29,150 bases of DNA from an uncultured Chloroflexia bacterium (lineage in GTDB: Bacteria > Chloroflexota > Limnocylindria > Limnocylindrales > CSP1-4), in assembly GCA_963734535.1 (NCBI GenBank), contig CAVTHS010000012.1, positions 1 to 29,150 of the forward strand, in the 5' to 3' direction. Of this stretch, positions 7,305 to 28,545 are shown piece by piece. How positions within the stretch are numbered: the first letter of the stretch is position 1; every line of letters starts with the position of its first letter. The position numbers and the translations under genes are program-made. Under the pieces are notes generated by a model. That model did not search any database. It worked only from the letters and a program-made list of their open reading frames with translations, and was not told the DNA's origin.

Positions 7305-8810
7305 TCAGGCGGCCCGGCGCCGCCGGTTCCGCAGGTGATGGAGGAACGCCCGCGTCCGCTCTTTGTGGTTGAACGCATAGCCGATGAGCAACAGCAGCAC
7401 GAAGTCGGCCGTGCCGACACCCGCGGCCGCCAGGTAGGAGAGCTGCTGGCCGACCGGCCCCTGGATGCCCATCGCCGGGACGACGATGTAGAAGAGGCCC
7501 AGCTGGAAGAACGGCGCCTTCGGGGCGAGGTTCGCGCGGGCCGTCCCCGTCGTGGGACCCGAGCTCGTCTGCCCGCCGACAAGGAAGACGTGGGACCCGG
7601 AGACGACCGGGGCCGCATCGCGAAGGCCCAGGTCGGTCGGCAGGTCGCTGGCGGCGAGATGCTTCCAGCCGCCGATGTTGCCCGCGGTGTCGGGGATCGC
7701 CCAGACGATCTCGCCGTTGGAGCCCTCGCCCCCGCCGTAGTAGAGGTTCGAGTTGGCGACCCAGCCGAACGCGCCCTCGTGGGCGGCCGGGAGGTCCTGC
7801 TGCGCGGCCGACGCAACCGTCGGGCTGCCCCACCGGGTGACCTGGCCCAGCGTGGCCTTGTCGGTCGAGATGTCGCCCCGGAGGACCTGCGCCGTCGGAC
7901 CGGACGCGTCGTCGCCGCCCCACACGAAGAGATCCTGGCCCAGGATCGTGGCAGCCGCGTGCACGCGCGGCGCCGGCTTGGTCGCCCCGGCCGTGTCGAA
8001 CGCCGTGAGCGGTGCATCGGGCGCCCACGCGGTGAGCTTGCCGGTGGTCGCGTTGAGGGCCGCCCTCCAGACTGTATCGACGGGTCCCTTGCCGTCCGTG
8101 CCGCCGATCAGGAAGATCCCGTCGCCGGCCACGGCGACGGCGGCACCGGCGCGGGGAGCGGGCAGCTTCAGGTCCGCCGATTCGGTCCAGGCGGTGATCT
8201 TGCCGGACTCTGGATCGGGCGTGCCCGCCAGGACCGTATCCGTGGGCTGGCCGCTCGCGTCGAGGCCGCCGATGACGTAGGCGACGCCCGAGAAGAAGGC
8301 GGCAGCCGCCTGGGTGCGCGGTGCCGGCAGCGCCGCGCCCTGGCTCCACGCATCGAGATTGCCGTCCGGCCGGATGACCGTTGCGAAGACGCTGGACTGG
8401 GCCGCCTTCCCGTCCGTGCCGCCGACGACGAGCGTCTCGAGGCCAGCCGCCACGATCGCGGCGCCGGAGCGCGCGGCCGGCAGCGCGAGCTCGGCCGGGT
8501 TCGGCTCCCAGGGCAGGATCGTTCCCGGGGGCGCCGGGCAGGGCACCGTCTCGTTCGACGCGGGGCAGAAGCTGATCGGGGTCAGGTCGAGGGCTGGGTT
8601 GAACACTTTGAGCGAGACGCCCAGGTCGATCGTGTTCTGCACGGTGGCGTAGAGGGCCCGGTCCGGGAGGTAGGCCATCAGCATGATGATGAGGACGAAC
8701 CACACGGTTGCCTTGACACCCGCCCAGCCCCAGCCGTTGGCGTCGAGCAGGCCGAAGAATGCCCGCCTGCGCACCACCGTGCCCCCCGGACCGAGCGCCT
8801 GTTCCGCCAT
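7305..8810 (-). CDS. Membrane-anchored Kelch-repeat beta-propeller protein
   Basis: Repeated LPAPR...(V/I)GG...W blades, with hydrophobic helices near both termini. GGAGG RBS. Last gene of the respiratory operon. Confidence 0.8.
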   Translation of the reverse strand: MAEQALGPGGTVVRRRAFFGLLDANGWGWAGVKATVWFVLIIMLMAYLPDRALYATVQNTIDLGVSLKVFNPALDLTPISFCPASNETVPCPAPPGTILPWEPNPAELALPAARSGAAIVAAGLETLVVGGTDGKAAQSSVFATVIRPDGNLDAWSQGAALPAPRTQAAAAFFSGVAYVIGGLDASGQPTDTVLAGTPDPESGKITAWTESADLKLPAPRAGAAVAVAGDGIFLIGGTDGKGPVDTVWRAALNATTGKLTAWAPDAPLTAFDTAGATKPAPRVHAAATILGQDLFVWGGDDASGPTAQVLRGDISTDKATLGQVTRWGSPTVASAAQQDLPAAHEGAFGWVANSNLYYGGGEGSNGEIVWAIPDTAGNIGGWKHLAASDLPTDLGLRDAAPVVSGSHVFLVGGQTSSGPTTGTARANLAPKAPFFQLGLFYIVVPAMGIQGPVGQQLSYLAAAGVGTADFVLLLLIGYAFNHKERTRAFLHHLRNRRRRAA

Positions 8811-8865
8811 CTGTCCTCCCTGTCGAGCGGCCGCCGGGCCCCCGCCGGCCTGCCGCGCCTCCCCG

Positions 8866-9972
8866 CTACTTGACCGTGAGGGTCCCCGTCATGTTGGGGT
8901 GGACCACGCACGAGAAGCCGTAGGTCCCCGCGGGAAGCGCCGGGACGTCGTAGGTCCGGCTGTCGGTCCCGCTGAAGATCTCGCCCTGCCAGACGATCGC
9001 GCCCGTCGGCGAGTCCTTGTGGATCGCGACGTTATGGGGGATGCCCGCGTCGTTGTTGGTGAACTTGATCTGGAAGGCGACCCCGGCCGGGGCGGTCAGC
9101 TCGGTCTTGTCGAAGGCCACCCCGGATGCCGTGAGCTCGAGGACGGTGCCGGCCGCGCCGCCCGAGGCGGCAGGCGAGCCCGCGGGGGCACCCGAGGGTG
9201 CTGCGCTCGGGGCGCCGCTCCCGGCCGGGGCGCCGCTTCCTCCCGCGCTGGGAGCGGCGGGAGCCGCCGACTTGAACGCGTCCTTCCAGCAGTTGGGGAC
9301 CGGCGTGGCCCCTGCGGGCGCGACATAGGCCGGGTCGCGCCAGCCGGTCAGCGTGACCGTCTTGCCCGTCGCGGGATCCACGCCCTGGAACTGCACGGTG
9401 GACGGCGCGGTGATGAAGGCAATCAGCTCCTGGATGTTGCGATAGTTGAGCGGTCCCGGCGGGTTGCCCTGGTCGGACCAGATGGGCATCAGCGAGTTGG
9501 CATCCCCGCACACGTAGCGGCCGCCCACGGTGAGGACGCTCTGCAGGTAGCCCGGCGTGAGGTGGGTCAGGAGCTTGGCCTGCTCGTTGAGGACCGGCCC
9601 GATCCCGCCCTGGCCCTGGGCGCCGTGGCAGCGCGCGCAGTTGGCCTCGTAGAGGGCATAGCCCTGGGTGACGGCGTTGACTTGCTGGACCGCGACCTCG
9701 TTCGTGAGCCGGCTGGAGTTCGGCACCCCCGGTACGCCCAGGTCGTAGAAGTAGTAGACGATCACGAACAACGCCACGATCGTGACCGCGAGGAAGGCGA
9801 CCCAGCGCGCGCTGGCGCTCTGCGTGACGATCTTCGCGGCGCGCTCCGGGGAGAGGCCGACCGTGTGCGCCGTCGGGGGCGCCGTGAACCGGTCCGGTGG
9901 CGGGGCGACCTCGGAGGGTCCGCGCGGAACGGGCAGGCGCTCCTCCGGCGGTGTGCCGGGCCCGTCAGTCAT
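8866..9972 (-). CDS. Membrane-anchored monoheme cytochrome c fused to a C-terminal cupredoxin
   Basis: An N-terminal TM helix, CARCH heme motif, distal Met (LMP), Ala/Pro/Ser linker, then PHNV...CVVHPNM type-1 copper ligands. Confidence 0.9.
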   Translation of the reverse strand: MTDGPGTPPEERLPVPRGPSEVAPPPDRFTAPPTAHTVGLSPERAAKIVTQSASARWVAFLAVTIVALFVIVYYFYDLGVPGVPNSSRLTNEVAVQQVNAVTQGYALYEANCARCHGAQGQGGIGPVLNEQAKLLTHLTPGYLQSVLTVGGRYVCGDANSLMPIWSDQGNPPGPLNYRNIQELIAFITAPSTVQFQGVDPATGKTVTLTGWRDPAYVAPAGATPVPNCWKDAFKSAAPAAPSAGGSGAPAGSGAPSAAPSGAPAGSPAASGGAAGTVLELTASGVAFDKTELTAPAGVAFQIKFTNNDAGIPHNVAIHKDSPTGAIVWQGEIFSGTDSRTYDVPALPAGTYGFSCVVHPNMTGTLTVK

Positions 9973-10000
9973 CGAGCGGCTCGGGTCATCGTCATCCGTC

Positions 10001-10669
10001 TCAGATACAGCCGGTCGAGCTCTTCGACGGGATCAGGCCCGGCTGACCGAGCGCGACGGGCAGCGGGCCGAGCGTGAGCTTGCTCGTGTCGAGAGTCAGC
10101 TTCCCGTCGGCGCCAACGCTGACGGCGAACCGGTCGAGCGAACGCGGCGCGGGCCCCAGCTCCTTCACCTTGATCCCCAGGCGGTCGTAGCGCGAGCCGT
10201 GGCACGGACACTCGAACCAGTAGCTCTTGACGCAGAAGTTCGGCTTGCAGCCAAGGTGGGTGCAGCGCTGGTACAGGGCCCGGACGTTCACGGCGGTGCC
10301 GTCCCCCGTCGCGTCGTCGCCCGGCACGAACTCCTGGCGGGTGGAATCGACGAGCACGATGAACGACCGCGCGTCCTGGTAGTACGCGGGGTAGCCGTCC
10401 CCGAACGGGATCAGCGCGTTGGCATTCTTGATGTCGGTGAACGTGCCCAGGGGAACTTTGCCGCCGAAGCCACCTGAGAGGTTGGGCCACAGGAACCCGA
10501 GGGTGCCCGCCGACACCTCGAGGAGCCAGAGGCCGACGCTCGCGCCGAGGGAGGTCCGGAGGAGCTGCCGTCGCGAGAGGCCCTTCGGGGCCTCCGTGCG
10601 CATCGACTTGAGCGCCTCGCTCGTGAGGGCCTGGGGCTTGCTGGCGGGTTCGACGTGGTAGTTGCTCAT
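10001..10669 (-). CDS. Rieske [2Fe-2S] subunit of a Rieske/cytochrome b complex
   Basis: Tat-type LSRRQLL plus a TM helix, with CTHLGC and CPCHGSRY boxes. The start was moved to MSNYH (10669). Confidence 0.93.
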   Translation of the reverse strand: MSNYHVEPASKPQALTSEALKSMRTEAPKGLSRRQLLRTSLGASVGLWLLEVSAGTLGFLWPNLSGGFGGKVPLGTFTDIKNANALIPFGDGYPAYYQDARSFIVLVDSTRQEFVPGDDATGDGTAVNVRALYQRCTHLGCKPNFCVKSYWFECPCHGSRYDRLGIKVKELGPAPRSLDRFAVSVGADGKLTLDTSKLTLGPLPVALGQPGLIPSKSSTGCI

Positions 10670-10676
10670 GGGACGC

Positions 10677-11273
10677 TCACAGGCTGAAGTGGAATCCACT
10701 GATCCAGGGAAGCGTAAACGCATACCCGGGACCCCGGAAGAAGATACCCAGAAACGTCAGCACGAGCCCGAACCCGCAGAAGAGCGTGAAGAGCACGACG
10801 GCCGTCTTGCGATCCGACGGGCGATTGGCCCGGATATTCTCGCGATCGACGAACGGGATCAGCGCCGCGCCGACCAGCACGAAGAGCGGCACGAGCGCGC
10901 CCGCGACGGTCGGGTGGAAGTAGGCAAGCAGCTCCTGGAGCCCCAGGAAGTACCAGGGCGCCTTGGCCACCTCCGGCGTGACATTCGGGTTGGCCAGCTC
11001 CTCGAGGGGGGCGTTCACGAAGAGGCCCATGAACAGGATGAAGATGCTCATGAAGACGGCCGCGAGGAACTCGATCGAGAGCAGGTGCGGCCAGGTCATG
11101 ACCGTGTCGTCGGGCTCCTTCTGGACCCGAACCACGGCGTCCTGCTTGACGAGCGCGAGCAGGCGATAGGGGCGCGCCGACATCGGCACACGCTGCTTGT
11201 CGATCTCGGTCCGCCGGGTCGGATCGACCGGCAGGACAACCCGCCGCTCGGGCGGTGCCTTCTGGTCCGTCAT
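10677..11273 (-). CDS. Cytochrome b C-terminal subunit (subunit IV/PetD-like)
   Basis: Motifs TWPHLL, APLEELANPNVTP, KAPWYFLGLQELL (PEWY position) and IPFVDR, with three TM helices. Confidence 0.9.
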   Translation of the reverse strand: MTDQKAPPERRVVLPVDPTRRTEIDKQRVPMSARPYRLLALVKQDAVVRVQKEPDDTVMTWPHLLSIEFLAAVFMSIFILFMGLFVNAPLEELANPNVTPEVAKAPWYFLGLQELLAYFHPTVAGALVPLFVLVGAALIPFVDRENIRANRPSDRKTAVVLFTLFCGFGLVLTFLGIFFRGPGYAFTLPWISGFHFSL

Positions 11274-11395
11274 CGCTCGTACCTCGGGGACGCCAGGACG
11301 AGGTCAGCGCAGGGCGGAGCCGGGCACGCGAGGACGCGCACCCCGAGGTGCGTCAGCGAGTCGGCGGAGGCGACAACCACGCGATGGCCCGTCAT
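11270..11395 (-). other. 126-bp insert encoding a 41-aa ORF with ATGA overlaps at both ends
   Basis: Its ATG (11395) overlaps the cyt b stop and its TGA (11270) overlaps the subunit IV start. Peptide: MTGHRVVVASADSLTHLGVRVLACPAPPCADLVLASPRYER. Confidence 0.5.
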
Positions 11396-12120
11396 AGCGG
11401 CCCCGAGATGCCGCCGTCCTTGCGGATTCGCCAGAAGTGGACCGCAAGGAACACGGCTGCGACCAATGGGAAGACCATGATGTGGAGGACGTAGAAGCGG
11501 AGCAGGGTGTTGCCGCTGACCTCCAGTCCGGCCAGCAGCAGGGTCTTCGACGGGGTGTTGAGGAGCGGCGCGTAGCCGGCCATGTTGGAGCCGATCGTGA
11601 TGGCCCAGTAGGCGATCTGGTCCCACGGCAGCAGGTAGCCGGTGAAGCTCAGGAAGAGCGTCAGGAAGAGCAGGACGACGCCGACCACCCAGTTGAACTC
11701 GCGGGGCGGCTTGTAGGCGCCGTGGTAGAAGACCCGCATCATGTGGAGGAAGACGAAGAACACCATCAGGTGGGCGGCCCACCGGTGGATGTTCCGGGTC
11801 AGGAGCCCGAACGGCACCTCCGACTGGATCCGCAGGATGTCGGAGTAGGCCTGCGTCGCCGACGGAGCGTAGAAGAACATCAGGTAGACGCCGGTCACGG
11901 TCAGCACGAGGAAGAGGAAGAACGAGAGCCCGCCCAGGCAGAACGTGTAGGCGAACTTGACCGCGTGCTGGCGGACGCGGACCGGGTGCAGGTGCAGGAA
12001 GACGTTGTTCATCACCGCGTACGCCCGCGACCGCTCGTCGTTGGGGTACGGGTTCCGGAAGATGGACCGGAAGACGGGGCTCCGCCGGATCGACTGATCC
12101 ACCCGCTCCAGGAAGCTCAC
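11392..12120 (-). CDS. Cytochrome b N-terminal subunit (cyt b6/PetB-like)
   Basis: Motifs FCLGG (heme ci Cys position), HRWAAHLM...HMMRVF, TGYLLPWDQ, RFYVLH...HF and ISGPL. AGGAGG RBS, and the GTG at 12120 overlaps the upstream stop. Confidence 0.93.
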   Translation of the reverse strand: MSFLERVDQSIRRSPVFRSIFRNPYPNDERSRAYAVMNNVFLHLHPVRVRQHAVKFAYTFCLGGLSFFLFLVLTVTGVYLMFFYAPSATQAYSDILRIQSEVPFGLLTRNIHRWAAHLMVFFVFLHMMRVFYHGAYKPPREFNWVVGVVLLFLTLFLSFTGYLLPWDQIAYWAITIGSNMAGYAPLLNTPSKTLLLAGLEVSGNTLLRFYVLHIMVFPLVAAVFLAVHFWRIRKDGGISGPL

Positions 12121-13952
12121 CTGGCCCCTCCTGCGACGCCGGGCGAGCCGGCAAGCTGCGCGTCCCGGTACGACTCCTTGTAGAGCCGGCCGTCGGTCGA
12201 TATCTCCTGGAGCTCGAACCGCTCCATCGTAATGGCGTCGAACGGGCACCGCTTGACGCAGAGTGCGCAGCGGATGCAGCGCTCCTCGTCGAGGATCATG
12301 GCGGCGCCCTGATCCCAGCCGTACGCCTCCTCGAGCTCCGGCAGGAACCCCTCTGACTTCATCTGGTTCACGTCGATCATGTGGATGACGCCCTCCGGGC
12401 AGACGTCGGCGCAGGCACCGCACAGGACGCACCGGAAGGGGTCGAACCAGATGTTGTAGTTGCACATGAGACAGCGCGTGGACTCGGCGACGGCATGGGT
12501 CGCGCTGTAGCCGAGCTCCACCCCGGTCGTGAAGTTGACCTCGGGCTCGCGGGCCGCCATGCGCGCCTCCACCGGCAGCATCGGGATGTGCTGCCGCGGG
12601 AGCACGTCGTAGTACTCCGGCATGTCGTGGCGCCACGACGAGGTGATCTTCACGTTCGCGGCCACCGTCACGTCGGCGCGCCCGCCGAGGTAGCGGTCGA
12701 TGGCGTAGGCGCACTTCTTGCCGTGCCCGGCAGCCTCGATGAGCGTCGCCGGGCCCGTCACGAAGTCGCCCGCCGCGAACACGCCGCGCACGTTCGTGGC
12801 ATACGTCGCCGGGTCCACCTTGAGCCGGCCGCGGGCGACCTCGAAGGTTGCCTCCACGGGCAGGAACGTCAGGTCCGCCGCCTGCGAGACGGCCGGGATG
12901 ACGGTGTCCGCGGGGACGACGAACTCCGACCCCGGGATCGGGACCGGCGAGCGGCGGCCGGAGGCGTCGGGCTCGCCGAGCTTGTTGCGGATGAACCGGA
13001 CCCCGGTCAGCTTCCCATCCTCGCCGAGCAGCTCGATGGGGCTCACCAGGAACTCCATCCGGACGCCTTCGCGCTCGGTCTCGCCCAGCTCCTCCTCGTC
13101 GACGACCAGCTCCGAGCGCGTCCGGCGATACGCGATCGTCACGTTCTCGGCACCGTGGCGCAGGCTGGTCCGCGAGCAGTCCATGGCCGTGTAACCGCCG
13201 CCCACCACGACGACGTTGCGGCCCACCTCCAGCGGCTCGCCCAGGTTCGCCTTCTTCATGAAGTCGACGCCGTACTGCACGCCGGCGAGCTCCGCACCGG
13301 GGATGTCGAGCCCGACGGCGTCCATGGCGCCGGCGCAGATCGCGACGCCGTCGAAGTCGTGGAGGAGCGTCTCGAAGCTGATGTCCGGGCCGATCTTCGT
13401 GTTGTACCGGAAGGTGACCCCCAGCCGCTCCACGAGTCGAACGTCCATCTCGATCGCTTCACGCGGCAGCCGAAACGCAGGGACACCGATCAGCATCGTC
13501 CCGCCGGCGAATGGGAGGCTGTCGAAGACGGTGACGCGATATCCCTTCACCGCGAGCTCGCGGGCGACCGCGATCCCGGCCGGCCCCGCGCCGACCACGG
13601 CGACGCGCTCGTCGCGCGGCGTGATCTGCGGCATCACGTCCGGGATGCCCGACGCCTCGTGCCACTCGACCAGGAACCGCTTCATCGCCCGGATCGCGAG
13701 CGGCCGATCGATGTCACCCCGCCGGCAGGCGCGCTCGCACGGCGCCGAGCAGACGTAGGCGCACATGGCCGCAACCGGGTTCGGCTCGCGCGAGAGGAGG
13801 TAGCCCTCCTCGAAGCGGCCCTCCGCGGCCAGGTTGAGGTAGCCGCGGCAGTTCGTCCCGACCGGGCAGGCTTCCTGGCACTCGATGTTGCATTGGAGCC
13901 AGGACGCGTCCACCGGCTGGACGAGGAACTCCTGGTTGGGGTCGATGGCCAC
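12117..13952 (-). CDS. NfnB/SudA/GltD/DsrL-like FAD- and NAD(P)-binding oxidoreductase with a C-terminal 2[4Fe-4S] ferredoxin domain
   Basis: Motifs CQEACP, CAYVCSAPCERAC, GAGPAG, GGGYTAMD, YRR, AAGD, RCLMC, CVLCGACADVCP and CIRCALCVKRCP. The start is assigned to GTG 13952 after GAGG. Confidence 0.9.
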   Translation of the reverse strand: MAIDPNQEFLVQPVDASWLQCNIECQEACPVGTNCRGYLNLAAEGRFEEGYLLSREPNPVAAMCAYVCSAPCERACRRGDIDRPLAIRAMKRFLVEWHEASGIPDVMPQITPRDERVAVVGAGPAGIAVARELAVKGYRVTVFDSLPFAGGTMLIGVPAFRLPREAIEMDVRLVERLGVTFRYNTKIGPDISFETLLHDFDGVAICAGAMDAVGLDIPGAELAGVQYGVDFMKKANLGEPLEVGRNVVVVGGGYTAMDCSRTSLRHGAENVTIAYRRTRSELVVDEEELGETEREGVRMEFLVSPIELLGEDGKLTGVRFIRNKLGEPDASGRRSPVPIPGSEFVVPADTVIPAVSQAADLTFLPVEATFEVARGRLKVDPATYATNVRGVFAAGDFVTGPATLIEAAGHGKKCAYAIDRYLGGRADVTVAANVKITSSWRHDMPEYYDVLPRQHIPMLPVEARMAAREPEVNFTTGVELGYSATHAVAESTRCLMCNYNIWFDPFRCVLCGACADVCPEGVIHMIDVNQMKSEGFLPELEEAYGWDQGAAMILDEERCIRCALCVKRCPFDAITMERFELQEISTDGRLYKESYRDAQLAGSPGVAGGAR

Positions 13953-14223: not shown

Positions 14224-14252
14224 TTGACGGGTCGACGTGACGCAGCTACCCT
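14224..14252 (+). promoter_or_regulatory. Sigma70-type promoter
   Basis: TTGACG, a 17-nt spacer, then TACCCT. Confidence 0.55.
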
Positions 14253-14319
14253 CGATGCGCAGACGCGTCCCTCGTCGATCGTCACGCCGACCCACAAGGA
14301 TCAGCCCGAGGAACGTCCC

Positions 14320-15789
14320 GTGAGTCCCAGCGCGTTCGTCTTCATTGCCGGTGGCCTCACGCTCGGCGTGCTCCTCGGTGGCGCCCTCATCGAGATCAGC
14401 CGGGCACGCCGGGACGCCAGGCGCGACGTCCGCCTCCCAGGCTCCGCGGGTCTCTCCGGGGGTCGCGCCGCGACCCTGGCCACTCCGCTCCTGGCCTTCG
14501 AGATGGCGCGCGGGCAGGACGACGTCGTGCCCTCGGAGGGCCGCGGGCCAGAACGTCCGTTCGGGGCGGCCGGGGGTGGAGTCGCCGCGGCCCGGGCCCC
14601 CGGCCCGGCCGCCTCGTCCATGACGACCCGCTCGACCCTCGGAGATGGACCTGGCGCGGCCAGGGCCGAGGCAGTGGACCCGTGCGCGGCCCTGCGCGCG
14701 GCCGTCGACGAGGCGAATGCACACGCGGCACGGATGGCACCCGTCGCAGAGGCGGCCCTCGCCCGGCTGCGCGACGCACGACACACCTACGACGAGCACG
14801 CGGGACGCCGCGAGCGCGCGGCATCGACGGTCGATCCGCGCGCGATTCGCACCGCGAAGGACGAGGCCCAGGCGCAGTTCCGCCGGAGCCGGCTCGCGGC
14901 ACAGGACCGGGCGACGGTCGAGGCGGCGGCCGCTGCCTGGCTTCGCGAGATCAACCGGATCAACGCACGAACCCGCGAGGCGGCGCTCGTGATGGCGCGC
15001 GAGGCCGGCGCGGAGGCGGAGCTGCTCCGTGTCGTCGAGAAGGCGGGTCTCGACGCGGACGTCGCCCGGATCGGAAGCGAGCACGCGGCCGACGAAAGCC
15101 GGAGTGCGCTCATGGCGCTCGCGAGCTGCGAGGAGGCGGAGCGCCTGGGGTCCGCCCCGCCCGAGCTTGCCCCTCCCGCGGCCCCGCGCCGGCTGGCCGA
15201 GGAGGACGCCGGGATGGCGGACCTGCCCGCGGCCCCCGGAGAGGACGTCGCGATCCTGCGCCTCCTCCGCGGCGACCGCGCCACCATGCGCTCGATCGTG
15301 GAACGCCTCGGGGGAAGTGACCCGGATGAGCAGCGCCGATGGCAGCTCCTCGTCTCGGATCTCGTCGACGCGGTCGTGGCACGAGCGATCGACGCGTCGG
15401 CGCTCACGTTCCCGACCGACCACGTCTTCTGGGGACCGTACACCCAGGCCCAGTGCCGCGAGATCGCCTCGGCCATGGCCGCGCTCGGCTATCGCTTCGA
15501 CGGCCTGGGCGGCTTCGTCGATGGACGGACGCCCAGCCAGCGCGACCTCTCGCTCGCCCTCGGCTACGCCGGCGAGGACCCGATGCGGATCCGACGCTGG
15601 CCGAGCGAGGCAGAGATGCCCGCGATGTTCCGCGACGTGCGCGTCGACACGGGTCGCTACCTGGCCGATACCGCCGGTGGGCTGACGATGGGCGAGATGG
15701 TGGATCTGCTGGGGCGTCGCGCAGAGCCGCTGGCCGAGCTCTGGAATGCGTGGGGTCGCGTGCGACCGCTCCTCCTCGAGGTGCCCTGA
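14320..15789 (+). CDS. Hypothetical protein: N-terminal TM helix, Ala/Glu/Arg coiled coil, globular C-terminal domain
   Basis: Long ORF with GC3-biased codons and GAGG before GTG 14320. No family recognised. Confidence 0.7.
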   Translation: MSPSAFVFIAGGLTLGVLLGGALIEISRARRDARRDVRLPGSAGLSGGRAATLATPLLAFEMARGQDDVVPSEGRGPERPFGAAGGGVAAARAPGPAASSMTTRSTLGDGPGAARAEAVDPCAALRAAVDEANAHAARMAPVAEAALARLRDARHTYDEHAGRRERAASTVDPRAIRTAKDEAQAQFRRSRLAAQDRATVEAAAAAWLREINRINARTREAALVMAREAGAEAELLRVVEKAGLDADVARIGSEHAADESRSALMALASCEEAERLGSAPPELAPPAAPRRLAEEDAGMADLPAAPGEDVAILRLLRGDRATMRSIVERLGGSDPDEQRRWQLLVSDLVDAVVARAIDASALTFPTDHVFWGPYTQAQCREIASAMAALGYRFDGLGGFVDGRTPSQRDLSLALGYAGEDPMRIRRWPSEAEMPAMFRDVRVDTGRYLADTAGGLTMGEMVDLLGRRAEPLAELWNAWGRVRPLLLEVP

Positions 15790-25387: not shown

Positions 25388-25493
25388 ACCGCCGGGCGCC
25401 GACACGATCCGCCGCCCCCCGGCCGGCTCCACCGGGCCCCAGGCAGGATCCATCGGGCGATCCGGCCGCGGTGAGCGCCAATCTGACGGCACG

Positions 25494-25541
25494 GCCCGTG
25501 ACGTTTGTCCTATTGGCAAGATTTGGCAGGTCGGACAGACT
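25494..25541 (+). promoter_or_regulatory. Promoter overlapped by degenerate 9-bp-period direct repeats
   Basis: Repeats GCCCGTGAC/GTTTGTCCT/ATTGGCAAG/ATTTGGCAG/GTCGGACAG. Promoter TTGGCA (25513), 17-nt spacer, CAGACT (25536). Confidence 0.45.
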
Positions 25542-25587
25542 CCCGTTCACTTCACGAATCCTCCATCGAAGGTCGCGACCAGACGTC

Positions 25588-28545
25588 ATGACAACGATCA
25601 GGCGCCCCGTGGACACCACGCTCTCGGTCACCAAGGCGGCACGCCTCCTGGGCGTGCACCCGAACACGATCCGGGCGTGGAGCGACCAGGGGCGACTCTC
25701 GTTCCTGCGCATCAACGAGCGCGGCGACCGCCGCTACCGGCTCGCTGACCTCCAGCGCTTCCTCGCGGAGGCGGAGACGAAACGCGAGCCCGTCCGCGGC
25801 CGCCGCGGCTTCGGCCGGAGCTCTGCCGCGCCCGTCGCCCCGTCGATCGGCGCCGACACGGTCGAACAGCGAACGCGGCCTTCGCCGCGCGCATCCGCCG
25901 ACCCGGCGACCGCCGTCCGGATCGCGTCCGCGCACGCCGGCTACCGGACCGCGGCGCGAACCCGCCCCGACGTCGCGATCCTCGCCCGGCTCGCCGACCT
26001 CGTCGTCGCAGACGCGGATGCGGATGTCGCGATGCGGGCCGCGGTGGACGACCTGCACGACCGCGCAGGACACGGGCTGGTCGCGATCCTCGAGCACCGG
26101 GACGGGCGGCTCGTGACGCGGACTGCGCGTGGGGCCGGCGTGGACCGACTCGGGTCGCTCTCGGATGCACACGGCCTGACCGCCCGCGCCCTGCGGGGCG
26201 AGAGCCCCGTCGCCGAGACCGGTAACGCGGGCCCGGACTGGCTCGGAGGATCAGCGAGCCTTCTGCGTTCCCGCGTGGCGGGGCCGATCCGCGATGCGGA
26301 CGACCATACCTGGGGCGTCCTGCTCGTGGCCGACGAAGGCACGGCGGTCCCCCCGGAACGAATTGCGTTCGTGTCCGCGGTTGCCCGCTCGCTCGGCATC
26401 GCGATCCATGCGGAACGGCTGCGCGGCGACGCGGCGCTCCGGCTCCACCGCGTCGAGGCGCTTCGCCGCATCGCGATCGACCTCGGCGGGACGCTCGACA
26501 TCGGCGAGATCCTCGCAGGCGTCGTCGACCACGCCCGCATCCTGTTCGGGGCCGAGCGCGCGGCGGCCTCGCTCCTTGGCGCTGACGGCCGGATGACCGC
26601 CGAGGCAAGCCACGGCTTCTCGGCCGGCTACCTCGCCGCCACGCGCGACCTTCCACTTCCGGCGCTCCCCGCGGAGGTGGTTGCCGAGCAGCGGCCGCTC
26701 TTCTCGGAACGATACCGGGACGACCCGCGGGCGCAGCCGGTCCGGGCAGCGGTGGTCCAGGAGGGATTCGAGACGCTCTGCGCCGCGCCACTCCAGGGCA
26801 CCGGGGGCGCACTGGGACTCGTCACCATCTGCCACGACCGACCGCACCGCTGGGATCCGGAGGAGCTCGAGGCCCTTGCCGGCTTCGCGGCGCACGCAAC
26901 CACCGCGGTGAAGAACGCGCAGCGGTTCGCGCGCATGGCGACGTGGACGGCGCAGCTGCAGTCGATCCAGCAGCTCGGCACGAAGCTCTCGCGCCTGACC
27001 ACGGAGAAGGAGATCGGCGACGCCATCTCGAACGAGCTCGAGGCGCTCATCGCCTTCCACAACGTCCGTGTCTATCGCCTGCGCGAGGATGGCTGGCTCG
27101 CTCCCGTGGCGATGCGCGGTCTCGTCGGCGAGTTCAAGGACGAGACGCCGGACCTGCTCCGCATCCGGATCGGCGAGGGGATCACCGGCTGGGTCGCTCG
27201 CAACAACATGCCGCAGAACCTGGGGGACGCCGCCAACGACGATCGGGCCCAGACGATCGCGGGCACGCAAGACGACCTCGAGGAGTCGATGCTGCTGGCG
27301 CCGATGGTCTACGAGGACGAGGTCCTCGGCGTGATCGTCCTCTCCAAGCTGGGCCTCCACCAGTTCTCCGATGACGACCTGCGCCTCCTCGTCATCTACG
27401 CCAGCCTCGCCGCGCAGGCGATCGCGAACGCCGACACGAGCGAGCACCTGCGGGCGCAGTCGACGCGACTGGAGCGACGGCTGGCCAGCCAGCGAGCGCT
27501 CCTGGCGACCACCGAATCGATCCTCGGAACGCTCGAGACGCGGCAGATCCTCGAGCAGGTCGTCGACCGCCTCAGCGCGGTCGTCCGGCTCGACACGATC
27601 TCGATCGAGCTGCTCGACCCCGGGTCCCGGATCCTGCGGCCCGTCCTGGCGCGGGGCGTGCACGCGGCTGCCTACCTCGAGCCGTGGGAGCCGGGCGAGG
27701 AAGGGCTTGCGACCTGGGTCGTTGCCCACGGCGAGCCCCAGCTCGTCCGCGATGAGCTTCTCGACTCCAGGGTGCGCCAGTTTCCCACGACGGGGCCGCT
27801 CGAGGGCAGCCTCATCTGCGTCCCGCTGCGCGGCCCGGACGGCGCGTTGGGAGTCGTCTCGATGGAGCGACTCGGGTCGGAGGAGCGGTTCGACGAGGAT
27901 GACTTCGAGCTCGTCCAGCTCTTCGCCGGCCAGGTCTCCATCGCCCTCCGCAACGCGGCTGCCTTCCGCGTCAAGGAGATCGAAGCCCAGACCGACCAGG
28001 TGACCGGGCTTCTCAACGCCGGCACGTTCCGGACCTGGCTCCAGGAGCCGGCGATGCCGGACGAGCGATTCGGGCTCCTCATGCTCGACCTGGACCACTT
28101 CAAGGAGATCAACGAGACGATGGGCCACGAGGCCGGCACCGAGCTCCTGCGGCAGATCGCCCGGGCGATCTCGGATGCCGGCCGCGACTCGGACCGCGTC
28201 TTCCGGTATGGCGGTGACGAGTTCGCCGTGATCGTGGCGGCCCCCGAGCCGACGGCCGCAATGGCCGTCGCGCGCCGGATCCGCCAGGTGCTCCGGGAGC
28301 TTCCCCACCGGCTTGCGGGGCTCGATTGCGGCCCCGTGGTGAGCGCCTCGATCGGCGTCGCGACCTATCCGTCCGACGGGACGACGCATGCCGAGATCCT
28401 GCTGGCGGCCGACCGGGCGTGCTTCGTGGCTAAGCGACGTGGGCGCGACCTGATCGCCACGGCCGCAGAGGGCCTGGCGCTGGCGGCGGACTTCACGTTG
28501 TCGGAGCCGACGCCGATGGATCCGGTGACACCGGGCCCGGGCTGA
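25588..28545 (+). CDS. BldC/excisionase-like (MerR-type) HTH + ~4 GAF domains + GGDEF dinucleotide cyclase
   Basis: HTH LSVTKAARLLGVHPNTIRAWSDQGRL...GDRRY; GAF motifs GEGITGW, APM, VPL and FSDDD; GGDEF domain DLDHFKEINETMGH, RDSD I-site, RYGGDEF, SIGVA and ADRA. The start could also be GTG 25609. Confidence 0.9.
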   Translation: MTTIRRPVDTTLSVTKAARLLGVHPNTIRAWSDQGRLSFLRINERGDRRYRLADLQRFLAEAETKREPVRGRRGFGRSSAAPVAPSIGADTVEQRTRPSPRASADPATAVRIASAHAGYRTAARTRPDVAILARLADLVVADADADVAMRAAVDDLHDRAGHGLVAILEHRDGRLVTRTARGAGVDRLGSLSDAHGLTARALRGESPVAETGNAGPDWLGGSASLLRSRVAGPIRDADDHTWGVLLVADEGTAVPPERIAFVSAVARSLGIAIHAERLRGDAALRLHRVEALRRIAIDLGGTLDIGEILAGVVDHARILFGAERAAASLLGADGRMTAEASHGFSAGYLAATRDLPLPALPAEVVAEQRPLFSERYRDDPRAQPVRAAVVQEGFETLCAAPLQGTGGALGLVTICHDRPHRWDPEELEALAGFAAHATTAVKNAQRFARMATWTAQLQSIQQLGTKLSRLTTEKEIGDAISNELEALIAFHNVRVYRLREDGWLAPVAMRGLVGEFKDETPDLLRIRIGEGITGWVARNNMPQNLGDAANDDRAQTIAGTQDDLEESMLLAPMVYEDEVLGVIVLSKLGLHQFSDDDLRLLVIYASLAAQAIANADTSEHLRAQSTRLERRLASQRALLATTESILGTLETRQILEQVVDRLSAVVRLDTISIELLDPGSRILRPVLARGVHAAAYLEPWEPGEEGLATWVVAHGEPQLVRDELLDSRVRQFPTTGPLEGSLICVPLRGPDGALGVVSMERLGSEERFDEDDFELVQLFAGQVSIALRNAAAFRVKEIEAQTDQVTGLLNAGTFRTWLQEPAMPDERFGLLMLDLDHFKEINETMGHEAGTELLRQIARAISDAGRDSDRVFRYGGDEFAVIVAAPEPTAAMAVARRIRQVLRELPHRLAGLDCGPVVSASIGVATYPSDGTTHAEILLAADRACFVAKRRGRDLIATAAEGLALAADFTLSEPTPMDPVTPGPG

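What the first reader, a model, noticed from the sequence alone, without database searches (positions are those of the whole stretch)
7305..13952. Rieske/cytochrome b complex co-encoded with an NfnB-like flavo-Fe-S subunit, a cyt c-cupredoxin fusion and a Kelch propeller
Seen: six co-oriented, tightly spaced genes. The flavoprotein stop overlaps the cyt b start (GTGA at 12117-12120), implying translational coupling. Known: standard bc1/b6f complexes have no NAD(P)-binding subunit, but anammox Rieske/cyt b complexes carry one and have been proposed to link quinol oxidation to NAD(P)+ or ferredoxin reduction. NfnB-family proteins can bifurcate electrons at a flavin. Inference: this is a non-canonical complex III in which a cytoplasmic NAD(P)H/ferredoxin module exchanges electrons at the heme ci/Qi side, for reverse electron flow or NADPH input, while the high-potential branch runs Rieske to heme c to tethered copper. 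I do not know this six-subunit combination as a described system.
Basis: partly seen in the sequence, partly recalled or inferred. Interest (0 to 1): 0.85.

Follow-up and report, generated by a model that had tools for sequence, protein, structure and literature searches.

The report
Complex III with built-in NADPH port
A little-studied group of soil and freshwater bacteria (Limnocylindria) encodes a respiratory cytochrome b6-type complex that probably carries its own NADPH-handling subunit inside the cell and a copper wire outside; this kind of complex is already known from anammox bacteria, but what it does is still untested.

Summary
The six genes and the GTGA overlap are real. They form an APWY/subfamily-G Rieske/cytochrome b6 operon of Limnocylindria (Chloroflexota). 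The flavoprotein gene adjoins cyt b in 91 of 93 class loci, and all six genes occur in 52 of 54 close loci, including 1.0-1.4 Mb genomes.

The flavoprotein is not NfnB-like in mechanism. It has the lysine cluster ligand of non-bifurcating StnC, an NADP(H) YRR motif and no NfnA gene in the operon. It looks like a GltD module inserted into a ferredoxin that stands alone before cyt b in actinobacteria. The Kelch protein is a propeller inserted into a small membrane subunit.

In streamlined genomes this is the only complex III found, beside one aa3-type oxidase. The complex therefore most likely runs forward (quinol, Rieske, haem c, tethered copper, oxidase), with NADPH most likely entering at haem ci. 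Anammox-style NADP+ reduction is the main rival. Binding is inferred. Against specificity: 0 of 34 loci from other Chloroflexota classes have the flavoprotein adjacent.

Pairing of such oxidoreductases with this cyt b clade is published, and this scan reported the operon at least eight times on other genomes. New variant of a known kind.

The parts
12117..13952 (-). NADP(H)-type flavo-Fe-S subunit, 611 aa: a GltD/StnC-like module inserted into a 2x[4Fe-4S] ferredoxin
   Evidence: Pfam. Best PDB relatives are NfnABC/StnABC large subunits, E 1e-108 to 1e-94. K91, R161 and YRR 275-277 are invariant in 57 of 57 rows.
13893..13952 (-). N-terminal peptide (residues 1-20) homologous to the N-terminus of the stand-alone actinobacterial ferredoxin
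   Evidence: BLASTP 8/18 identities, E 0.023. An HMM of the ferredoxin N-terminus hits residues 9-20 of 8 operon flavoproteins at iE 3e-4 to 0.017, and no complex I, Hdr or Hox paralogue in the set.
12462..13892 (-). Inserted GltD-like module (residues about 21-497): two [4Fe-4S] clusters, FAD, NADP(H) site; StnC-type Lys91 cluster ligand
   Evidence: Alignments to 8OH5_C, 9N5U_A, 4YLF_B and 5JCA_L; StnC K170/R239 from PMC10482914; YRR from PMC7596348.
12213..12461 (-). C-terminal dicluster ferredoxin domain (residues about 498-580), the presumed dock onto cyt b
   Evidence: 36% identity to the stand-alone ferredoxin L129, E 3e-15. Docking itself is inferred.
11392..12120 (-). Four-helix cytochrome b6-type subunit: CxGG Cys61 (haem ci); His112/126/213/228; subfamily-G His43 and C-terminal Arg233/Lys234
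   Evidence: Passes the NCBIfam ExtP cut-off, 294.9 vs 290. His43 is kept in 108 of 112 representatives covering that position.
10677..11273 (-). Subunit IV with APWY Qo motif (105-108), and invariant His63/Glu68 at or next to the b6f Phe40 position
10001..10669 (-). Rieske protein with twin-arginine anchor and the high-potential Ser/Tyr signature (S159/Y161)
   Evidence: The two best PDB hits are 9RK3 and 9RK4, E 5e-16 and 7e-15; I take these to be the anammox Rieske proteins of PMC12954380 from their names, which was not checked further.
8866..9972 (-). Membrane-anchored monohaem cytochrome c (C112/C115/H116, probable Met162 ligand), flexible linker and type-1 cupredoxin (H313, C355, H358, M361)
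   Evidence: It is the only class I cytochrome c found in 5 of 5 genomes. Its cupredoxin is 64-76% identical to those fused to oxidase subunits in G000.
7305..8810 (-). Small membrane subunit with an extracytoplasmic Kelch propeller inserted between two membrane helices; conserved C82/C91, no conserved metal-binding His
   Evidence: AF2 model pLDDT 76 and Foldseek Kelch folds. Anchor HMMs hit the small membrane protein after cyt c in other Limnocylindria. Conservation.

Best explanation
This is the cell's forward quinol:copper oxidoreductase (complex III) of the APWY/subfamily-G b6 type, with a hard-wired N-side NADP(H) port. Shown from sequence: the parts, their cofactor motifs and their conserved order. 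Inferred, P side: quinol (menaquinol in this genome) is oxidised at Qo, and one electron goes Rieske to haem c to the tethered type-1 copper and on to the aa3-type oxidase, whose subunits carry related cupredoxin tethers; no separate cytochrome c was found. Inferred, N side: the ferredoxin domain docks on the cyt b dimer, possibly through a His43-ligated interface haem as modelled for anammox. A linear, non-bifurcating FAD/4x[4Fe-4S] wire links NADP(H) to haems bH/ci. Most likely direction: NADPH supplies the second electron for quinone reduction at Qi, as in Mitchell's original Q cycle or the FNR-b6f route, giving an NADPH sink and Q-cycle priming. The Kelch protein is a structural membrane subunit. 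I put about 0.75 on a physical, forward, non-bifurcating complex; the confidence given is for the whole statement, including direction.
For: Synteny: the flavoprotein adjoins cyt b in 72 of 74 close and 19 of 19 distant class loci, and all six genes occur in 52 of 54. Operon flavoproteins form one clade (SH-aLRT 99, quick tree). The subunit is 82-83% identical between this genome and 1.0-1.4 Mb genomes, more than Rieske (64-67%) or cyt c (51-56%). The stand-alone ferredoxin form precedes cyt b in 62 of 62 metagenome loci with room. Streamlined genomes have one full-length cyt b in 16 of 16, COX1 in 15 of 16, no bd oxidase or NrfD in 3 of 3 and only this cytochrome c in 3 of 3, so forward flow is needed. 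NADPH sources PntB and G6PD are present in 5 of 5. Qi-side Cys61, His63 and Glu68 are invariant. A rough energy budget with assumed potentials gives -280 to +40 meV for NADP+ reduction against 180 mV pmf. K91 matches non-bifurcating StnC.
Against: The same cyt b clade, with His43, CxGG, APWY and a Ser/Tyr Rieske, occurs in 34 of 34 loci from other Chloroflexota classes with no adjacent flavoprotein, and 12 of those 34 genomes gave no flavoprotein match at E<=1e-60. The core therefore works without it, and His43 is a clade marker, not proof of a dock. NADPH-to-quinone at Qi bypasses complex I, which in these genomes has its own YRR-bearing GltD module; PMC12954380 uses that waste argument against input in anammox. 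MenD was not found in 3 of 3 streamlined genomes, so their quinone is not established.
Confidence: 0.42

Rival explanations
1. Anammox-style output: same physical forward complex, but the low-potential electron from Qo bifurcation leaves through bH/ci or the interface haem and reduces NADP+. The NADPH is used for biosynthesis or re-enters through the NADPH module of complex I.
For: A high-potential Ser/Tyr Rieske (signature rule in PMC4122944) paired with menaquinone synthesis (MenD in G000 and G007). The closest solved Rieske proteins are 9RK3/9RK4; the anammox Rieske proteins measure +303 and +335 mV and were argued to fit NAD(P)H production (PMC12954380). The His43-to-Arg233 spacing of 190 plus the 14-15 residue insertion seen in 4 representatives gives the 204 spacing of the anammox residues.
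Against: Ser/Tyr Rieske and APWY also occur in lineages with no flavoprotein found. The energy budget is marginal to negative at full pmf (assumed values). These genomes have other NADPH sources.
Confidence: 0.3
2. The flavoprotein is co-transcribed but is a soluble or loosely attached NADPH:ferredoxin-type oxidoreductase; the membrane complex runs an ordinary modified Q cycle.
For: Full-length orthologues are encoded away from cyt b, among unrelated genes, in 10 of 34 genomes of other classes, plus 2 cut by contig ends. Genomes with the cyt b clade but no flavoprotein found exist.
Against: Conserved -4 overlap (61 of 73); the ferredoxin-only form precedes cyt b in 62 of 62 loci; very high conservation; co-migration is reported for the anammox complexes (PMC12954380 discussion).
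Confidence: 0.2
3. One reading: flavin-based bifurcation at the FAD (NfnB-like), or a complex that mainly runs the Q cycle in reverse.
For: The NfnB fold and the Arg near FAD (R161) are kept. APWY was proposed to mark reverse operation (PMC4122944).
Against: Lys91 replaces the NfnB Glu, as in StnC, whose FAD does not bifurcate and which also keeps that Arg. No NfnA gene is in the operon. It is the only link found between the quinone pool and the only oxidase found in streamlined genomes.
Confidence: 0.08

Closest known systems
Anammox Rieske/cytochrome b complexes Kuste4569-4574 and Kustd1480-1485 (Kuenenia stuttgartiensis; PMC12954380)
   Same: Split b6/subunit IV, haem cN cysteine, high-potential Rieske, co-encoded NAD(P) oxidoreductase with FAD and four Fe-S clusters, Glu and His near haem cN, probable equivalent of the interface-haem His.
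   Different: Aerobic host; three-helix rather than five-helix subunit IV; monohaem cyt c with a cupredoxin tether instead of hexa/octahaem cytochromes; Kelch membrane subunit; only complex III found in streamlined genomes. The Kuenenia cyt b and flavoprotein sequences were not in hand, so orthology was not tested.
APWY clade (PMC4122944) / subfamily G (PMC5600118) of cytochrome b, including Ktedonobacter, Ilumatobacter and Geobacter ExtP
   Same: APWY Qo motif, CxGG, short cyt b, Ser/Tyr Rieske; NCBIfam ExtP cut-off passed; the oxidoreductase neighbour was already noted for this subfamily.
   Different: Those papers do not list Limnocylindria in the passages and supplementary text I saw; no cupredoxin or Kelch family appears in the Fig. 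S1 legend of PMC5600118.
StnC / NfnABC large subunit GltD module (PDB 8OH5, 9BOV, 9N5U)
   Same: Best structural-sequence relatives; Lys cluster ligand; permuted GltD module inserted into an Fe-S wire; NADP(H) site.
   Different: No NuoG/FdhF domains; no StnAB bifurcating module in the operon; the wire ends in a dicluster ferredoxin next to cyt b.
Cytochrome b6f with FNR/ferredoxin (PMC7908018)
   Same: Haem ci and a proposed N-side NADPH/ferredoxin electron input at Qi.
   Different: PEWY versus APWY; FNR is loosely bound and of another fold, whereas here the port is a co-encoded GltD-ferredoxin; cyt f and free plastocyanin are replaced by a class I haem c with tethered cupredoxin.
DsrL-2 (PMC7596348)
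   Same: Same domain order and the YRR motif.
   Different: No dsrA found in G000; different partner.

Membership tests
Rieske/cyt b complex, b6 type | Four-helix cyt b with four haem b His, separate subunit IV, Rieske Cys/His motifs | tested here: met
   H112/H126/H213/H228 invariant in 61 of 61
Rieske/cyt b complex, b6 type | CxGG cysteine for haem ci | tested here: met
   C61 in 61 of 61; haem attachment itself not testable
APWY clade / subfamily G | APWY Qo motif and mid-to-high potential Rieske signature | tested here: met
   APWY in 59 of 59; S159/Y161; definitions
APWY clade / subfamily G | Placement in a cyt b tree with named members | not tested
   No named reference sequences in hand; NCBIfam ExtP cut-off passed
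Anammox-type NAD(P)-linked Rieske/cyt b complex | Co-encoded FAD/Fe-S NAD(P) oxidoreductase | tested here: met
Anammox-type NAD(P)-linked Rieske/cyt b complex | Interface-haem His and C-terminal Arg/Lys on cyt b; Glu and His by haem cN | tested here: inconclusive
   H43, R233/K234, H63 and E68 are invariant, but equivalence rests on spacing, and H43 is also kept without a flavoprotein
Anammox-type NAD(P)-linked Rieske/cyt b complex | Multihaem cytochromes c and five-helix subunit IV | tested here: not met
   One CxxCH; three hydrophobic helices
Anammox-type NAD(P)-linked Rieske/cyt b complex | Flavoprotein co-migrates with the membrane complex | not testable with these tools
   Needs purification
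NfnB (bifurcating) | Glu-ligated proximal cluster | tested here: not met
   Lys91 in 57 of 57; Glu/Lys rule
NfnB (bifurcating) | NfnA partner encoded alongside | tested here: not met
   None among the six genes or their neighbours; genome-wide pairing not tested
StnC-like non-bifurcating NADP(H) module | Lys ligand, Arg by FAD, YRR NADP(H) site | tested here: met
   K91=K170 and R161=R239 by alignment; YRR
DsrL | Organism carries dsrAB | tested here: not met
   0 of 1 genome, 90% complete
Galactose-oxidase-like copper radical oxidase (Kelch) | Conserved His/Tyr copper ligands (recalled feature) | tested here: not met
   No His among positions conserved at 93% or more in 54 rows

The most novel reading that the evidence does not exclude
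Limnocylindria run an NADP(H)-centred respiratory loop in which complex III and complex I each carry an inserted GltD module. Complex III sends the low-potential electron of Qo bifurcation to NADP+ through an interface haem, and complex I re-oxidises that NADPH, so excess driving force of a menaquinol/high-potential Rieske pair is converted into extra pumping. All P-side carriers are tethered coppers. This would be a Q cycle whose N-side half runs through the cytoplasmic nucleotide pool in an aerobe, kept even in 1.1 Mb genomes.
Probability: 0.15. Interest if true: 0.88.

Novelty: new variant of a known kind. Interest (0 to 1): 0.52.

Why it matters
What haem ci and the N side of b6-type complexes do is a long-standing question, in photosynthetic cyclic electron flow and in anammox NAD(P)H supply. 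Here nature offers a graded series on one cyt b clade: no port found (several Chloroflexota families), ferredoxin-only port (actinobacteria), unlinked flavoprotein, and fused NADP(H) port (Limnocylindria). The series sits in aerobes with a minimal respiratory chain. Comparing these by purification and titration would directly test electron direction at haem ci and the predicted interface haem. The class of complex is already described, I know of no cultured Limnocylindria host (recalled, not searched), and no function was shown here.

Tried and rejected
Complex prediction of the flavoprotein ferredoxin domain (residues 488-611) with cyt b and subunit IV dimers returned 'no answer' (score 0.01, partner fold uncertain). 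It is not evidence either way.

The AF2 model of the flavoprotein was low confidence (pLDDT 56) and was not used.

RNA: 16 RNA runs held small shares of the stretch. In 4 laid runs, relatives' contigs (many only 85-95% alike) covered all six genes, and listed pieces bridged cyt c/Rieske and Rieske/subunit IV. No listed piece bridged flavoprotein/cyt b, with 969 pieces not shown. Contigs cannot show a transcript, so co-transcription is untested.

The promoter/terminator scan found nothing above shuffles.

The idea that the flavoprotein replaces a missing complex I input module was rejected: NuoF and NuoH families were found in 40 of 41 genomes. The idea that it is needed because NADPH sources are missing was rejected. 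One search found two Iso_dh-family matches in 5 of 5 genomes but cannot tell their cofactor or substrate.

The futalosine route was not found, 0 of 5.

The 41-codon ORF between cyt b and subunit IV was rejected as a subunit: frame coupled at both ends in only 20 of 35 loci with a gap, gap under 40 bp in 38 of 73 loci, and no unusual fold.

The careful tree did not finish; only the quick tree is cited, and it left out 3 partial rows. No cyt b tree against named anammox sequences was built.

Literature: searches returned nothing; one search gave 11 papers; one search listed 40 papers with no mention of Limnocylindria; one search gave 4. Dibrova 2013 was not held. ten Brink 2013, Kartal 2013 and de Almeida 2016 were not read; they or their supplements may already show such operons outside anammox.


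Full report
Observation. The six minus-strand ORFs, their families and the GTGA overlap are as described. Gaps are -4, 118, 7, 28 and 55 bp, and the flanking genes are on the other strand. Record titles of the closest relatives name Limnocylindrales, Limnocylindrus and Aquidulcis, placing the window in class Limnocylindria, Chloroflexota. The window contig duplicates part of contig C11 at 88-98% identity, so it is probably a co-binned sister-strain contig. The C11 copy has frame breaks in the flavoprotein and Kelch genes.

Conservation. I examined 97 loci (L031-L127; a few are duplicates, e.g. L032 and L051, and kin are not independent). The flavoprotein adjoins cyt b in 72 of 74 close loci (cyt b at least 80% identical) and 19 of 19 more distant loci with upstream room. 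All six genes occur in 52 of 54 close loci with room, and in 0 of 13 distant ones, which lack the Kelch propeller and cupredoxin. The two misses (L093, L099) are orphan cyt b paralogues behind a PadR gene. All 16 streamlined 1.0-1.4 Mb genomes keep cyt b and the flavoprotein. Genus g5 of the same family gave no cyt b match in 6 of 6 genomes, and G001 lacks both the operon and COX1.

Beyond the class. A profile search of 401 Chloroflexota genomes found cyt b at E<=1e-40 in 248. I fetched 40 loci chosen from the best 150 listed. The flavoprotein was adjacent in 5 of 6 loci within the class and in 0 of 34 outside it (32 with at least 5 kb upstream), although His43, CxGG, APWY and the Rieske Ser were generally kept. 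Of those 34 genomes, 10 have a full-length unlinked orthologue and 2 a contig-cut one, among unrelated genes; 12 have no match at E<=1e-60. Haem c-cupredoxin fusions also occur outside the class (Pfam-confirmed in L151 and L155; motif-level in others). So the flavoprotein linkage is class-wide, the copper tether is wider, and the Kelch insertion is restricted to the close group.

Membrane core. Cyt b has the b6-type His spacing and Cys61 for haem ci, and passes the ExtP model cut-off. Subunit IV has APWY and invariant His63/Glu68. HMMER aligns position 69 to b6f Phe40, so Glu68 lies at or next to that position. The Rieske protein has the Ser/Tyr signature, which PMC4122944 classes as above 260 mV (passages). 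PMC12954380 (abstract, passages, sections 3.3 and 4 read) models an extra haem at the anammox cyt b dimer interface, bound by His43/His62 with Arg247/Arg266. The window has His43 and Arg233. The spacing is 190, and 204 with the 14-15 residue insertion seen in four representatives. This equivalence is inferred. His43 is kept in 108 of 112 representatives covering it (of 150 listed), including lineages without a flavoprotein.

Flavoprotein. Its best solved relatives are the NfnABC/StnABC large subunits, ahead of NfnB and GltD. Lys91 aligns with StnC Lys170 where NfnB has Glu, and Arg161 aligns with Arg239. PMC10482914 (passages) reports that the StnC FAD does not bifurcate. YRR indicates NADP(H) (PMC7596348, passages). 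In three actinobacterial loci a 134-149 aa ferredoxin sits before cyt b. The L129 protein aligns with flavoprotein residues 3-20 and then 500-579, so the GltD module reads as an insertion into that ferredoxin; loss of the module from a fused ancestor would look the same, and I did not root this. In 80 metagenome loci of that ferredoxin, cyt b follows within 400 bp in 62 of 62 with room, and none shows a GltD part. The three actinobacterial genomes gave no flavoprotein match at E<=1e-20 (completeness unknown). The constant element next to cyt b is thus the dicluster ferredoxin, which is the best argument that it is the docking module.

P side. Haem c and type-1 copper ligands are conserved in at least 93% of 54 rows. 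This protein is the only class I cytochrome c found in 5 of 5 genomes. The aa3-type oxidase operon carries related cupredoxins: two in G000 (64% and 76% identical, with frame breaks in that operon) and one in streamlined G028 (49% to its own). A cupredoxin is also fused to oxidase subunit II in L129. The Kelch protein models as two membrane helices around a propeller, and its Atlas neighbours are Chloroflexota clusters. HMMs of its two anchor regions, run on 6730 ORFs from 60 loci, rank the roughly 190-aa membrane protein after cyt c in other Limnocylindria on top (best E 9e-7 for the first helix, 1e-3 for the second), in adjacent positions. The propeller is therefore an insertion into an existing small membrane subunit, which argues for a structural subunit rather than a passenger. 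A match to the actinobacterial small protein (L129) was not significant (E 1).

Physiological frame. Streamlined genomes have complex I (16 of 16), one full-length cyt b (16 of 16) and COX1 (15 of 16). No bd oxidase or NrfD was found in 3 of 3. They keep exactly two GltD-like loci: this one and one beside NuoF in 15 of 16, the latter also with YRR. PntB and G6PD are present in 5 of 5. MenD passes its cut-off in G000 and G007 only. Forward quinol oxidation is therefore required. A rough budget with assumed potentials makes NADP+ reduction marginal at full pmf, while NADPH to quinone is downhill. I favour NADPH input (0.42) over anammox-style output (0.30), a non-bound flavoprotein (0.20), and flavin bifurcation or reverse operation (0.08). 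Direction and binding are inferred.

Relation to what is known. PMC5600118 (section 9, passages, Fig. S1 text) states that subfamily-G cyt b co-occurs with NAD(P)-binding Fe-S oxidoreductases in anammox and 'many other cases'; the drawn gene neighbourhoods were not visible to me. PMC4122944 (passages and supplement passages, one file not searchable) lists Ktedonobacter and Ilumatobacter in the APWY clade. PMC7908018 (passages) describes the N-side-donor Q cycle. Two Limnocylindria genomics papers (passages only) do not discuss this complex in the passages seen. My searches found no description of the six-gene form, but subscription papers are mostly missing. Earlier notes of this scan report the same operon on at least eight other genomes and the ferredoxin-only operon on eight; these are not independent support.

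Verdict. Real, strongly conserved, and a new variant of a known but functionally untested kind. Interest 0.52.

Noticed in passing
L134:4368-8405 (G000:C14) and L141:8178-10781 (G028:C3): The complex I operon carries a GltD-like, YRR-bearing module joined to NuoI-like ferredoxin domains. In G000 it reads as one 1345-aa frame with NuoF; in G028 NuoF is separate.
   Followed up: partly
L131:9577-13831 (G000:C7); L142:8138-8983; L129:2084-3106: The aa3-type oxidase subunits carry C-terminal type-1 cupredoxins related to the cyt c tether; the G000 copies have frame breaks.
   Followed up: partly
L093:8001-8729, L099:8001-8729, L190:6107-6835: Orphan cyt b paralogues (83-87% identical, intact motifs) with no subunit IV or Rieske nearby, close to PadR and in two cases hemerythrin-domain genes.
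   Followed up: partly
L144-L150: A second Rieske/cyt b operon in several genus members: Rieske, fused cyt b, multihaem cytochrome, in most of these loci preceded by a ~730-aa gene that is an NADH:flavin oxidoreductase in the two scanned (L144, L145).
   Followed up: no
window 11274-11391: A 118-bp spacer between cyt b and subunit IV holds a 41-codon frame overlapping both neighbours; the DNA is loosely conserved but the frame is not.
   Followed up: yes
window 1-29150 versus G000:C11:170812-206492: The whole window duplicates another contig at 88-98% identity; probably a co-binned sister strain.
   Followed up: yes
L201:2388-7085: A more distant GltD-ferredoxin homologue sits directly before 2-oxoacid:ferredoxin oxidoreductase alpha/beta genes in family f8.
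   Followed up: no
L138:4319-10803; L135:5925-12174: Further GltD fusions in G000: a HoxF-GltD NiFe hydrogenase and an HdrL-like cluster.
   Followed up: no
window 14224-15789 (+): A 521-aa divergently oriented ORF upstream of the operon with no Pfam or NCBIfam match; its DNA is syntenic in genus relatives.
   Followed up: no
window 25471-28545 (+): A 1024-aa HTH + four GAF + GGDEF protein.
   Followed up: no
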